64,000 nucleotides of DNA from an uncultured Bacilli bacterium (lineage in GTDB: Bacteria; Bacillota_I; Bacilli_A; RF39; UBA660). Each line of letters opens with the position of its first letter. Position 1 is the stretch's first letter. The DNA lies in assembly GCA_947626095.1 (NCBI GenBank), contig CANQQV010000003.1, positions 1 to 64,000 on the forward strand, given 5' to 3'. Shown here one piece after another: positions 20,318-21,914 of the stretch. The notes below the pieces were generated by a model that made no database searches, was not told the DNA's origin, and saw only the letters and a program-made list of their open reading frames with translations. Position numbers and translations under genes: made by a program.

Positions 20318-20698
20318 CTATGCTTCACTAAAGATAAAAGGATTTCCTTCTAATAAATTAACTAATTCTTCATTAGTATAATGATGTTCTAACTTATAAT
20401 CTTCAATATCAAAATCATCTAAGTCTAAAAGATAAGGATTAGTATCAAATAAAATATTTAAATCATTTAACCCAATACTTAATAATTCATTAATTAATCC
20501 TACTACATCTTCCTTTGTACGTGATAAATAATTCGGATTACTAATTAAGATATTTTTAATCATTCTCGTATCACATTTAATTAAATATAAAATATCAATT
20601 AAAATATTTAATTCTGGCTCATCTAAGATATTTTTATTTAATTCCAACATACTTTTTAATTCTTCTTCACTAATTCCAAGTTCAACTAACTTTTCCAT
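20318..20698 (-). CDS. Small acidic mTERF-like repeat protein
   Basis: LVELGISEEELKSML, ILISNPNYL, LLSIGL..LFDTNPYLL and LEGNPFIF resemble the repeat of the upstream gene. Overlaps that gene by 17 nt. Confidence 0.5.
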   Translation of the reverse strand: MEKLVELGISEEELKSMLELNKNILDEPELNILIDILYLIKCDTRMIKNILISNPNYLSRTKEDVVGLINELLSIGLNDLNILFDTNPYLLDLDDFDIEDYKLEHHYTNEELVNLLEGNPFIFSEA

Positions 20699-21914
20699 AT
20701 GTTTGCTCCTTATATTTTTTATAATCGTAAATCTGTATTAGTTCACCCTTAGTCACATGAAAACGCTTTTTAAAATATGGTTCATCACTAAATAGTAAGT
20801 AATAATCATCACTAGTTGGTGTTAAATCTTTACTCTTTAAAAATTCATATCTAGCATAAGTTACACTAACACTCTGCATTAACTGTTTAGGGTCATTTGT
20901 CACAACCTCTTTTAAGTTAATACTAATTAAATATTTTATTTTATCTTCAATGTTTTGTAAACTAAAACCGAATAAACCAGGAAAAATAGTTAACATATTT
21001 ATAGCTTGTTCTTTAGTTATATCAAAACTCATTAAATCCTTAATTCTTTTTTGCATACGTGTCTTTTTATAAGTATAAATAGCTGGATGCATATAAGTCA
21101 TTCTTAAAATACTATCTTTATCAAAACCTAAACTAATAAGTTCGTCTATCTTATCTTTTAAGGTCGCACTACTATATCCAAATAAAGCCGGACTTTTATA
21201 AAATAACCTTAATACTTGTTTTCTCGTATAGCCTAACTTTATTGCTTCATCAATTTTTATATCTAAAGTTTCTTTTGAATAACCAAAAACCGCTGGATTT
21301 AATTTACCTATTTTATGGGCTTGTTCTTTTGTATAACCTAAAGTTTCTAAATCTAACAAAGCCTGCTCCATATTCGGTAAACTATAAACAAATAATTTCG
21401 GAATATTACGTGTCATTTTAATCATATCTTTACGCGTATATCCAAGTGACATTATTTCCTTTTGTCTATTAGCAACAGTCTCTTTACTATAACTTAATAA
21501 ATTACCACTACTAGCCATCATTTTTAATGCTTCTTTTTTACTATAACCTAATTCTTTTAAATTTAAAAGTTTATTTTCGATATTCTTCTTTGCTAAACAA
21601 AAAGTTTCTGAAAAAGAGATAATAAGCCTAATAACATCTTGATCACTAAAACCAATCGTCTTTAAATCTTTAATTTTTTGTTCTAGATTAGCTACTGTTA
21701 AACCATATATGTTAGGAGCAAAACAAATCATCTTAATAATTGTTTCTCTAGGTATTTGTAATCCTTCTAAGAATAAATTATTTTCTTTAGCATGTTTTAA
21801 TAGTGTTTCTTCCTTACTGCCTTGTAAAATTAACGGTTTAACTATATTTATACTTTGTTCATAAGTATATCCATAAGCTATTAAATAATCTATTAATTCA
21901 GAGTTATTAGCCAT
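20682..21914 (-). CDS. mTERF-like helical repeat protein (about 8 repeats of 35 aa)
   Basis: Periodic L..LGY.K......M....P.LF.YS...L..KI.. units. C-terminal TYARYEFL and LFSDEPYFKKRF. Confidence 0.7.
   Translation of the reverse strand: MANNSELIDYLIAYGYTYEQSINIVKPLILQGSKEETLLKHAKENNLFLEGLQIPRETIIKMICFAPNIYGLTVANLEQKIKDLKTIGFSDQDVIRLIISFSETFCLAKKNIENKLLNLKELGYSKKEALKMMASSGNLLSYSKETVANRQKEIMSLGYTRKDMIKMTRNIPKLFVYSLPNMEQALLDLETLGYTKEQAHKIGKLNPAVFGYSKETLDIKIDEAIKLGYTRKQVLRLFYKSPALFGYSSATLKDKIDELISLGFDKDSILRMTYMHPAIYTYKKTRMQKRIKDLMSFDITKEQAINMLTIFPGLFGFSLQNIEDKIKYLISINLKEVVTNDPKQLMQSVSVTYARYEFLKSKDLTPTSDDYYLLFSDEPYFKKRFHVTKGELIQIYDYKKYKEQTYGKVS

What the first reader, a model, noticed from the sequence alone, without database searches (positions are those of the whole stretch)
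20318..21914. Bacterial mTERF-like gene pair: a long basic repeat protein plus a short acidic paralog
Seen: the 410-aa protein has about 8 strict 35-residue repeats, e.g. LETLGYTKEQAHKIGKLNPAVFGYSKETLDIKIDE and AIKLGYTRKQVLRLFYKSPALFGYSSATLKDKIDE, ending in ARYEFL...LFSDEPYF. The overlapping 126-aa gene carries similar L..LG / NP.LL units but is strongly acidic. Established: the pattern L..lG.s...i......P.ll..s.e.l..k..fL is the mTERF repeat. mTERFs form superhelical nucleic-acid-binding proteins in mitochondria and plastids (termination, ribosome assembly, splicing) and are generally described as eukaryotic. Inference: this is a bacterial modular nucleic-acid binder, with the small acidic partner possibly acting as an inhibitor, nucleic-acid mimic or adaptor. 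It bears on mTERF origins and perhaps on programmable repeat binders.
Basis: partly seen in the sequence, partly recalled or inferred. Interest (0 to 1): 0.75.

Follow-up and report, generated by a model that had tools for sequence, protein, structure and literature searches.

The report
Bacterial mTERF repeat protein with acidic partner
A gut bacterium carries a protein built like the DNA-gripping mTERF factors of mitochondria, followed by a small acidic miniature of the same fold that is predicted to sit on its DNA-reading surface; the large type was described in 2024, the small partner apparently was not.

Summary
Window 20682-21914 (-) encodes a 410-aa basic protein with a strict 35-residue period (z 13.6). 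Window 20318-20698 (-) encodes a 126-aa acidic protein (pI 4.13) that overlaps it by 17 nt.

The large protein is a clear mTERF-family member: Pfam PF02536 E 1e-36, AF2 pLDDT 94.5, and DNA-bound human MTERF1 as the top fold match. The small one is a mini-mTERF of about 3.5 repeats by fold.

Bacterial mTERF-like tandem-repeat proteins ("pTERF") were published in 2024 as nanomolar, sequence-specific dsDNA binders (PMC11417379). The large gene is therefore a new member of a known kind.

What looks new is the partner:
- It follows the large gene in 26 of 31 determinable metagenomic groups.
- It forms a family of 232 clusters at E<=1e-10.
- It is predicted to bind the large protein (score 0.83, best control 0.00).
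- The predicted contacts fall on repeat positions equivalent to the DNA base-flipping residues of MTERF1.
- Those positions (16, 17, 19) are also the most variable between repeats.

Best reading: a heterodimeric, modular nucleic-acid binder whose acidic subunit occupies and gates the reading face. Function is inferred, not shown.

The parts
20682..21914 (-). Large subunit: 410-aa basic mTERF-fold tandem-repeat protein (pTERF-like)
   Evidence: ORF. Pfam mTERF E 1e-36. AF2 pLDDT 94.5, pTM 0.83. Foldseek top hits are MTERF1-DNA complexes, E 3.4e-9.
20826..21770 (-). Repeat array: residues 49-363, nine 35-residue three-helix units. Phases 16, 17 and 19 around the conserved Pro at phase 18 are the variable, putative base-reading positions.
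   Evidence: Lag-35 z 13.6. Three helices per unit. Entropy of 232 repeats. Register against MTERF1 R162, F243 and F322 from the alignment.
20685..20825 (-). C-terminal cap of the large subunit, which follows the family's most conserved motif (QSVxxxYARY, residues 347-356, in the last repeat unit). Cap and motif together are the predicted docking site for the small subunit.
   Evidence: Near-invariant columns L345, Q347, S348, Y353, A354, R355, Y356, F381, Y396, Y398. Predicted contacts at 346-351, 377-379 and 388-402.
20318..20698 (-). Small subunit: 126-aa acidic mini-mTERF of about 3.5 repeats
   Evidence: ORF. pI 4.13. AF2 pLDDT 93.1. Foldseek top 17 hits all mTERFs. Family of 232 clusters at E<=1e-10.
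20682..20711 (-). Gene junction: 17-nt overlap, with the small gene's AAGGAG Shine-Dalgarno (20711-20706) inside the end of the large gene. This is a translational-coupling layout.
   Evidence: Sequence read. The same layout (56-nt overlap to 72-nt gap) occurs in 24 large-to-small junctions of representative metagenomic loci.
21921..21925 (-). GGAGG Shine-Dalgarno, 6 nt upstream of the large gene's ATG
   Evidence: Sequence read.

Best explanation
The two genes encode a heterodimeric, modular nucleic-acid-binding module, most likely binding dsDNA.

The large subunit is an mTERF-type superhelical solenoid of strict 35-residue units. Conserved Gly, Tyr, Pro and Lys positions build the scaffold. 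The variable residues at positions 16, 17 and 19 of each unit, which flank the conserved Pro, read the bases.

The small acidic subunit is a 3.5-repeat mini-mTERF made by translational coupling. It docks on the conserved C-terminal motif and cap of the large subunit and lies along its basic reading face. From there it gates nucleic-acid binding as a competitive occluder or DNA mimic, or it sharpens specificity.

What is shown: the fold, the family, the periodicity, the conserved gene pairing and the position-specific variability. What is predicted: the physical contact. What is inferred: DNA as the ligand and the gating role.
For: Family and fold:
- Pfam mTERF E 1e-36.
- A1 profile against solved MTERF1, MTERF3 and MTERF4, E 2e-17 to 1e-10.
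- AF2 pLDDT 94.5 with three helices per 35 aa.
- Foldseek top 8 hits are MTERF1-DNA complexes.
- Small protein: pLDDT 93.1; top 17 hits all mTERFs, TMq 0.79, rmsd 2.6 A to 3mva; BLASTP to the large protein's repeats E 0.001.

Pairing:
- The large-then-small order is kept in 4 other genomes of the genus (G005, G008, G010, G014) and in 2 other genera with different neighbours (G394, G428).
- Of 74 metagenomic loci, 48 have the small gene, 7 lack it with >=700 nt on both sides, and 19 are too short to tell.
- Of 38 groups at 90% identity, 26 have it, 5 lack it and 7 are undetermined.
- A six-frame re-search found no hidden small gene in the loci that lack it.
- Junctions run from a 56-nt overlap to a 72-nt gap (n=24). 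The window's SD lies inside the upstream gene.

Contact:
- The model supports binding but does not show it. Score 0.83 (runs 0.74, 0.84, 0.83); best of 3 controls 0.00.
- That mark was reached by 116 of 157 solved complexes and 2 of 215 mismatched pairs. These counts hold only roughly, because my own alignments were used.
- The runs agree in at least 90% of contacts, and the partner's pLDDT is at least 88.
- The interface is charge-complementary: 12 K/R against 6 D/E among 42 large-subunit contacts, and 2 K/R against 12 D/E among 38 small-subunit contacts.
- The contacts include near-invariant Q347, S348 and Y398 of the large family and invariant D85, N87, P88, Y89, D94, E117, P120 and E125 of the close small orthologs.

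Reading face:
- Among 232 distinct repeats from 96 large proteins, entropy is highest at phases 16 (3.43 bits), 17 (2.78) and 19 (2.78), around Pro18 (0.63).
- In the alignment, MTERF1 R162, F243 and F322 fall at phases 16, 19 and 22. The chain offset of +72 was checked by the Ala at F322 in the F322A chain 5crj.
- R162, F243 and Y288 are the base-flipping stacking residues, and the R162A/F243A/Y288A/F322A mutant is described as DNA-binding deficient (bioRxiv 10.64898/2026.07.16.738964, passages read).
- Predicted contacts in repeats 4-9 fall at phases 15-27.
- These positions differ between repeats but are kept between orthologs: identity 0.79, 0.88 and 0.71 against 0.80, 0.70 and 0.56 at other repeat positions (n=24).

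Literature: pTERF1 and pTERF2, tandem mTERF-like proteins from Bacillota MAGs, bind distinct dsDNA motifs; pTERF1 has Kd 1.87 nM (PMC11417379 section 53).
Against: - No binding was measured here, neither protein to protein nor protein to nucleic acid.
- I had no model coordinates. 'Lies in the groove' rests on a residue list and an alignment-based register, not on a superposition with DNA.
- Both chains share one fold, and a predictor may favour packing one solenoid on another.
- 5 of 31 determinable groups have a large gene without the small one. The paper describes DNA binding by purified pTERF1 and pTERF2 and mentions no partner. The partner is therefore not needed for DNA binding and may not be universal.
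- Arrays such as one small gene with five large ones (L067) do not fit simple 1:1 stoichiometry.
- The large proteins of the family are not generally basic: median net charge +2, range -11 to +25, n=72.
- Small-subunit interface residues are no more conserved than the rest between genus orthologs.
- The metagenome scan was seeded with the C-terminal motif, so large genes lacking that motif were never sampled.
- Eukaryotic MTERF3 and MTERF4 act on RNA and ribosomes, so RNA is a live alternative ligand.
Confidence: 0.55

Rival explanations
1. The small protein is a constitutive structural co-subunit or adaptor. It completes or stabilises the large solenoid and may recruit it to another machine, as NSUN4 pairs with MTERF4. 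It does not compete with the nucleic acid.
For: The translational-coupling layout implies co-production. Docking is on the most conserved C-terminal motif of the large family. One small gene is shared by several large paralogs in arrays (L067, L078, L040). Solved MTERF4-NSUN4 complexes are among the fold hits.
Against: Predicted contacts also cover the basic helix-1 stripe of repeats 3-6 and the variable phases 16-19, which is more than a cap would need. 5 of 31 determinable groups lack the small gene. The paper reports DNA binding by purified pTERF1 and pTERF2 and mentions no partner.
Confidence: 0.3
2. The module acts on RNA, in rRNA or ribosome biogenesis or RNA processing, like MTERF3, MTERF4, mS93 or plant mTERF9, rather than on DNA.
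For: Profile and fold hits include the mitoribosomal mS93 and ribosome-assembly MTERF4. Several loci sit among translation and RNA genes: ybeY-dgkA | array | cdd in L078; SpoU methylase, rimM and trmD in L106; alaS in L036, L040 and L073; cysS in L044; pth in L090. The pTERF paper reports GO terms on RNA metabolism for predicted targets (section 53).
Against: Neighbours differ from locus to locus. They also include DNA-side genes (SSB, SMC, DnaE, an AddB-like nuclease) and unrelated ones, so context is not specific. The best fold and profile matches are to DNA-bound MTERF1. The only experiments on bacterial relatives show dsDNA binding.
Confidence: 0.2
3. The predicted heterodimer is an artefact of two like folds. 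The small protein works on its own, for example as a decoy or an independent binder, and is merely a tandem paralog.
For: Both are mTERF folds. The tool itself warns that a pass is the model's confidence, not a measurement. Small-subunit interface residues are not more conserved than the rest in genus orthologs.
Against: All controls scored 0.00 against 0.83. The conserved adjacency and overlap across genera and metagenomes point to a functional link. The opposite charges are complementary at the interface.
Confidence: 0.15
4. The pair is a toxin-antitoxin or anti-phage defence module: a DNA-binding toxin with an acidic neutraliser.
For: It is a two-gene overlapping cassette with a patchy distribution: 4 of 26 other genomes of the genus match over the cut-off and 3 of 399 genomes of the phylum sample. 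A small acidic protein paired with a larger basic one fits the type.
Against: No PADLOC hit for either protein, no meaningful PHROG hit and no tblastn match in 50,697 phage records. The genes are co-directional inside housekeeping operons and not in mobile islands. No enzymatic domain is present.
Confidence: 0.05

Closest known systems
pTERF1 / pTERF2, prokaryotic mTERF-like tandem-repeat proteins (PMC11417379, NAR 2024; abstract and section 53 read)
   Same: Bacillota MAG origin, uninterrupted tandem mTERF-like units of three helices, 3-11 units per protein, and Pfam/SMART mTERF annotation. The paper's screen accepted periods of 15-35 aa, which is compatible with the 35-aa period here.
   Different: Sequence relationship could not be tested because Supplementary Table S11 was closed. 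The paper says the conserved Pro/Leu features of eukaryotic motifs were not seen in pTERF1, whereas here Pro18 is kept in 90% of 232 repeats. The main text contains none of the words operon, adjacent gene, neighboring gene, genomic context or acidic, so no partner is described there.
Human MTERF1 (PDB 3mva, 3n6s, 5crj and others)
   Same: Same fold (Foldseek E 3.4e-9, TM 0.43-0.59) and profile match E 2e-17. The conserved Pro is in register. The variable phases 16 and 19 align with base-flipping residues R162 and F243.
   Different: MTERF1 has irregular, interspersed motifs with insertions; Y288, for example, lies in an insertion absent here. It is a monomer on DNA, is nuclear-encoded and acts in mitochondria. 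Sequence identity is 16-19%.
MTERF4-NSUN4 heterodimer (PDB 4fp9, 7o9k)
   Same: An mTERF protein working as an obligate pair through its C-terminal part. It is among the fold hits.
   Different: There the partner is an RNA methyltransferase, not a mini-mTERF, and the complex acts on the mitoribosome.
DNA-mimic proteins (for example phage Ocr and ArdA; recalled, not searched here)
   Same: Small, strongly acidic, and proposed to occupy the DNA-binding surface of a DNA-binding protein.
   Different: Here the candidate mimic is a paralog of its target and is encoded in the same operon as a self partner, not as a weapon against another organism's enzyme. Mimicry of the phosphate pattern was not tested.
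TALE / BurrH modular DNA readers (PDB 4cja, 3v6t)
   Same: Strict tandem repeats of about 33-35 aa forming a superhelix, with a few hypervariable residues per repeat. Weak fold hits (E 2e-4 to 2e-2, TM 0.2-0.3).
   Different: A different repeat fold of two helices. There is no evidence here for a one-repeat-one-base code.

Membership tests
mTERF (Pfam PF02536) | Score above Pfam's gathering cut-off: large protein | tested here: met
   126.9 bits against a cut-off of 23.1, E 1e-36.
mTERF (Pfam PF02536) | Score above Pfam's gathering cut-off: small protein | tested here: inconclusive
   The window copy scores 15.3 bits, below 23.1. The small ORFs of G394 and G428 are over the cut-off (E 2.3e-10 and 7e-7). 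Atlas clusters of 129-131 aa carry PF02536 in 84-88% of members.
mTERF (Pfam PF02536) | Motif of about 30-35 aa with three helices, stacked into a superhelical solenoid like solved MTERF1, MTERF3 and MTERF4 | tested here: met
   Nine three-helix units at pLDDT 94.5. The top 13 Foldseek hits are MTERF1, MTERF3, mS93 and MTERF4. Small protein TMq 0.77-0.79 to MTERF3 and MTERF1. Handedness was not examined.
mTERF (Pfam PF02536) | Conserved proline within the motif | tested here: met
   Pro at phase 18 in 90% of 232 distinct repeats. It aligns with the MTERF1 motif prolines.
mTERF (Pfam PF02536) | Nuclear-encoded eukaryotic protein acting in mitochondria or plastids | tested here: not met
   The gene is encoded in a 1.6-Mb, 26% GC bacterial genome among bacterial genes and has Shine-Dalgarno sites. 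Record titles of the nearest loci name an uncultured Bacilli bacterium. This is a matter of host, not of fold.
mTERF (Pfam PF02536) | Binds nucleic acid | not testable with these tools
   Inferred from homology and from published pTERF data.
pTERF (PMC11417379) | Uninterrupted tandem mTERF-like units, 3-11 per protein, in Bacillota MAGs | tested here: met
   192 of 213 successive repeat starts are exactly 35 residues apart, with 1-12 ungapped units per protein. Bacilli MAG titles.
pTERF (PMC11417379) | Sequence homology to pTERF1 or pTERF2 | not testable with these tools
pTERF (PMC11417379) | Sequence-specific dsDNA binding at nanomolar Kd | not testable with these tools
   This needs SELEX, EMSA or BLI.
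DNA-mimic / anti-DNA-binding proteins | Small and strongly acidic | tested here: met
   pI 4.13, net charge -18. Family median net charge -11.5, n=44.
DNA-mimic / anti-DNA-binding proteins | Occupies the DNA-binding surface of its target and competes with DNA | tested here: inconclusive
   Predicted contacts fall on phases equivalent to MTERF1 DNA-contact residues. No coordinates and no competition data were available.
Toxin-antitoxin / defence systems | Match to known defence or TA families, or a mobile or defence-island context | tested here: not met
   PADLOC gave 0 families. No phage match. Neighbours are housekeeping genes.

The most novel reading that the evidence does not exclude
The roughly 131-aa acidic mini-mTERF is a dedicated, self-encoded DNA mimic. 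It plugs the base-reading groove of a programmable family of bacterial mTERF-type DNA binders. One such gatekeeper serves whole arrays of large paralogs with different repeat codes, read at positions 16, 17 and 19. This would be a new bacterial principle for gating sequence-specific DNA binders, and a natural on/off partner for engineered repeat binders.
Probability: 0.3. Interest if true: 0.75.

Novelty: new variant of a known kind. Interest (0 to 1): 0.55.

Why it matters
mTERF proteins control transcription termination and ribosome assembly in organelles. A bacterial branch was recognised only in 2024 and was proposed as a reprogrammable DNA binder.

If the large proteins normally work with a conserved acidic mini-mTERF that covers their reading face, three things follow:
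- In-vitro data on the large subunit alone describe only half of the system.
- The partner offers a natural switch for engineered binders.
- The variable triad around the conserved proline gives a concrete hypothesis for the recognition code.

The patchy distribution bears on the origin of mTERFs. The family was found over the Pfam cut-off in 3 of 399 sampled genomes of the phylum. That does not fit simple vertical descent from the ancestor of organelles, but no phylogeny was made here.

Tried and rejected
- **Empty-site test in genus members without the pair** (read): HD paralogs are many. The HD / zinc-ribbon / MBL block is kept in G001 and G018, but the upstream genes differ, so no clean insertion site could be defined.
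- **Link to the HExxH-motif ORFs:** BLASTP of the G428 upstream ORF against window 16118-17886 gave E 0.14-0.29. Rejected as unsupported.
- **Defence or phage origin:** PADLOC none; PHROGs only weak hits of unknown function, E >= 0.001; phage tblastn none.
- **Rfam** on the whole window: no family at gathering score.
- **Promoter scan:** 74 sites against 82 expected from shuffles, so uninformative.
- **DNA tandem repeats** in the gene: none of the repeat period.
- **RNA runs:** no RNA holder listed, so no reads were laid.
- **Earlier findings of this scan**, by sequence: nothing to show.
- **First periodicity script:** timed out and was rerun.
- **The look-up of encoding contigs:** not called, because it is marked closed.
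- **Split-gene idea** (the small ORF as a detached C-terminus of a longer protein): among the best 150 hits of the small profile, nearly all are stand-alone proteins of about 100-135 aa. Two of the three long ones were fetched (P0194, P0203; P0198 was not) and look like generic multi-repeat mTERF proteins by eye, with no scan run.
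Full report
**Observation.** On the minus strand the window holds a 410-aa ORF (20682-21914) and a 126-aa ORF (20318-20698) that overlap by 17 nt. The quoted repeats and the C-terminal YARYEFL...LFSDEPYF are present. The 35-residue period is strong. 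Mean BLOSUM62 self-score at lags 35, 70 and 105 gives z = 13.6, 13.6 and 10.6 against 500 shuffles, whose 95th-percentile maximum over all lags is 3.4. The large protein has pI 9.22 (61 K/R, 48 D/E) and the small one pI 4.13 (9 K/R, 27 D/E). Each gene has a Shine-Dalgarno site. The small gene's AAGGAG lies inside the last codons of the large gene, 7 nt before its ATG. There is no DNA-level tandem repeat, so the units are old.

**What the large protein is.**
- Pfam mTERF (PF02536) matches at E 1e-36, 126.9 bits against a cut-off of 23.1.
- A profile of 35 relatives (A1) finds solved MTERF1 (E 2e-17), MTERF3 (6e-15), the Tetrahymena mitoribosomal mS93 (2e-11) and MTERF4 (1e-10). It also finds a designed 35-residue toroid.
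- AlphaFold2 on A1 gives pLDDT 94.5 and pTM 0.83, with nine units of three helices per 35 residues plus caps.
- Foldseek against the PDB ranks DNA-bound MTERF1 first (E 3.4e-9, TM 0.43-0.59). MTERF3, mS93 and MTERF4 follow, and TALE/BurrH proteins come far behind.

**What the small protein is.**
- In Pfam the window copy is below threshold for mTERF (15.3 bits, E 0.0098).
- BLASTP to the large protein's repeats gives E 0.001 at 22% identity.
- Its AF2 model (pLDDT 93.1, pTM 0.85) has mTERF proteins as its top 17 Foldseek hits. TMq is 0.79 with rmsd 2.6 A to 3mva and 0.77 to MTERF3. Foldseek E-values are only 0.013-0.49 for this short query.
- The homologous small ORFs in G394 and G428 pass Pfam's mTERF cut-off.
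- Atlas clusters of 129-131 aa carry PF02536 in 84-88% of members.

It is a mini-mTERF of about 3.5 units. An alignment of 26 diverse members (A3) shows a near-invariant Cys (C42), the motif NILFDSNPYILNL and an acidic tail LEDIVDDLDSNPYLF.E.

**Host and distribution.**
- The genome (G000) is 1.6 Mb in 34 contigs at about 26% GC, with one mTERF locus.
- The nearest public loci are titled as MAGs of an uncultured Bacilli bacterium.
- Among 61 relatives including G000, 6 have a match over the Pfam cut-off. Within the genus that is 4 of 26 other genomes: G005, G008, G010 and G014. A fifth, G019, has only a weak hit.
- In an even sample of the phylum, 3 of 399 scored genomes are over the cut-off (G000, G394, G428), and 2 genomes could not be scored. 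None of the 14 control genomes matches.
- The word-indexed protein search gave 45 metagenomic relatives at 25-42% identity.
- No match was found in 50,697 phage records.

**The pairing is conserved.**
- In the four genus relatives the order is flavin reductase-rubredoxin, large gene, small gene, HD protein, as in the window.
- In G394 (438 aa plus about 131 aa) and G428 (310 aa plus 131 aa), which are other genera with other neighbours, the small acidic gene again follows and overlaps the large one.
- A metagenome scan seeded with the C-terminal motif QS[VT]x[LV][ST]YARY matched 112 stretches. Of these, 101 encoded relatives, 80 were kept, and they make 74 distinct loci.
- I classified ORFs with HMMs of the small and large families. 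Of the 74 loci, 48 hold a small gene, 7 lack one with >=700 nt on both sides, and 19 are too short to tell.
- After single-linkage grouping at 90% identity there are 38 groups: 26 with the small gene, 5 without (L045, L058, L061, L066, L073) and 7 undetermined.
- A six-frame stop-to-stop search of the loci without it found no hidden copy. The only trace is a 53-aa remnant just after the large gene in L052.
- In one representative locus per group, 24 of 26 small genes follow a large gene, with junctions from a 56-nt overlap to a 72-nt gap.
- Several loci hold arrays. L067 has large-small-large-large-large-large, L078 has large-small-large-large, and L040 has large-small-large. The same cmk / alaS site holds large-small (L036), large-small-large (L040) or a lone large gene (L073).
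- The exhaustive profile search with A3 finds 719 clusters (50% identity) at E<=0.001, 232 at E<=1e-10 and 49 at E<=1e-30. Nearly all of the best 150 are stand-alone proteins of about 100-135 aa.
- Small proteins are acidic throughout: median net charge -11.5, range -16 to +3, n=44. Large ones are not generally basic: median +2, range -11 to +25, n=72.

**Context.** Pfam on 70 flanking ORFs of 16 loci shows ordinary, variable chromosomal neighbours, mostly co-directional:
- cmk and alaS-mltG (L036, L040, L073)
- ybeY-dgkA and cdd (L078)
- YgjP, SpoU methylase, rimM and trmD (L106)
- cysS, sufB and SSB (L044)
- SSB and a pyrimidine nucleoside phosphorylase (L067)
- SMC (L061)
- a PBP and pth (L090)
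- an AddB-like nuclease (L056)

There is no defence or mobile signature, and PADLOC gives none. The only constant partner is the small protein.

**Predicted contact.** The complex tool's verdict is that the model supports binding but does not show it.
- The score is 0.83 (runs 0.74, 0.84, 0.83), and the best of 3 controls is 0.00.
- The mark was reached by 116 of 157 solved complexes and 2 of 215 mismatched pairs. These counts hold only roughly, because my own alignments were used.
- The runs agree in at least 90% of contacts, and the partner's pLDDT is at least 88.
- I know of no solved mTERF-mTERF heterodimer (recalled), so a pass from memory is unlikely. Both chains share a fold, however, which may favour packing.
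- On the large chain, contacts recur once per repeat from repeat 3 to the C-terminal cap: 125-128, 160-170, 195-201, 236-240, 275-286, 316-324, 346-351, 377-402.
- They use helix-1 phases 6-16 in repeats 3-6 and phases 16-30 in repeats 7-9.
- 12 of 42 large-chain contacts are K/R against 6 D/E. 12 of 38 small-chain contacts are D/E against 2 K/R.
- Contacts include near-invariant Q347, S348 and Y398 of the large family and many invariant residues of the close small orthologs.

**The reading face.**
- From 96 distinct large proteins I collected 232 distinct ungapped 35-mers. Of 213 successive repeat starts, 192 are exactly 35 apart.
- The scaffold positions are nearly fixed: G4 at 0.23 bits, K31 at 0.50, Y5 at 0.62, P18 at 0.63, I32 at 0.67.
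- The most variable positions are 16 (3.43 bits), 17 (2.78) and 19 (2.78), which flank Pro18.
- I counted the register by hand in the HMMER alignment. Chain index +72 gives the residue number, checked by the Ala at position 322 of the F322A chain 5crj.
- In that register MTERF1 R162 is at phase 16, F243 at phase 19 and F322 at phase 22. Y288 lies in an insertion absent here.
- R162, F243 and Y288 are the base-flipping stacking residues. The fourfold mutant that adds F322A is described as DNA-binding deficient (bioRxiv 10.64898/2026.07.16.738964, passages). The same residues appear in the PDB titles.
- The positions that vary most between repeats are therefore those that touch bases in MTERF1. 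The small subunit is predicted to lie over them.
- Between the 410-aa orthologs of the genus, these positions are kept at least as well as the rest: 0.79, 0.88 and 0.71 against 0.80, 0.70 and 0.56 (n=24 positions). This is what specificity residues for a conserved target would show. The sample is small.

**Comparison with what is known.**
- PMC11417379 (abstract and section 53 read) named pTERF. These are tandem mTERF-like proteins of 3-11 units from MAGs, mostly Bacillota.
- pTERF1 binds ACTNNNAGTC with Kd 1.87 nM, and pTERF2 binds another motif. The authors call them the first prokaryotic mTERF homologs.
- The paper's screen accepted periods of 15-35 aa.
- Its main text contains none of the words operon, adjacent gene, neighboring gene, genomic context or acidic.
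- A full-text search for pTERF or 'prokaryotic mTERF-like' finds this sense only in that paper.
- The broader search for mTERF with bacteria listed no other paper on bacterial mTERFs among the 15 shown of 662.
I therefore cannot say whether the window's family is the published one. By description it probably is.
- The paper notes that the Pro/Leu features were not seen in pTERF1, whereas Pro18 is strongly kept here.

**Verdict.** The large gene is a new member of a known, recently described kind. The conserved acidic mini-mTERF partner, its predicted docking on the conserved C-terminal motif and reading face, the multi-paralog arrays and the variable triad around the proline look undescribed in the literature I could search. 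They make this a new variant. The mechanism, a heterodimer with a gating acidic subunit, is inferred. The main rivals are a constitutive co-subunit, an RNA or ribosome role, and a prediction artefact.

Noticed in passing
window 16118-17886 (-), promoter-like site 17941-17913 (-): Two tandem paralog-like ORFs (297 and 291 aa) with HExxH-type motifs (HEITH, HEIIH) and no Pfam, PADLOC or PHROG family. They are preceded by a perfect 12/12 sigma-70 consensus. In G428 a 359-aa HExxH ORF sits directly upstream of the mTERF gene, but BLASTP similarity is not significant (E 0.14-0.29).
   Followed up: partly
window 18427-18975 (-): A 182-aa ORF conserved in synteny in genus relatives, with no Pfam, PADLOC or PHROG match.
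   Followed up: no
L067:427-5663; L078:2875-6346; L036, L040 and L073 at the cmk/alaS site: Arrays of up to five large mTERF-like paralogs with one small gene. The same chromosomal site holds large-small, large-small-large or a lone large gene in related contigs, which suggests rapid gain, loss and repeat-number change.
   Followed up: partly
L103:5119-6536: A bAvd-like gene and a reverse transcriptase (a DGR-type pair) lie about 1.5 kb downstream of a solitary 201-aa large mTERF-like gene, with two unannotated ORFs between them. Whether the mTERF gene is related to the retroelement was not examined.
   Followed up: no
window 20573-20575 (-), residue C42 of the small protein: A near-invariant cysteine in the small family, next to predicted interface residues 43-46. 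In the window and genus relatives the pair sits just downstream of a flavin reductase-rubredoxin gene. A redox link is pure speculation.
   Followed up: no
L052:1020-1181: A 53-aa remnant matching the small-protein HMM (21.8 bits) directly after a large gene, possibly a decayed partner.
   Followed up: no
L024:1402-2718 (G394): This 438-aa large protein with 11 repeats is net acidic (60 K/R, 71 D/E), so 'basic' is not a family trait.
   Followed up: no
PDB 4yxx, 5byo, 4yxz: Computationally designed left-handed alpha/alpha toroids with 35-residue repeats match the A1 profile (E 6e-9) and the model. They echo the strict 35-residue unit of this family.
   Followed up: no
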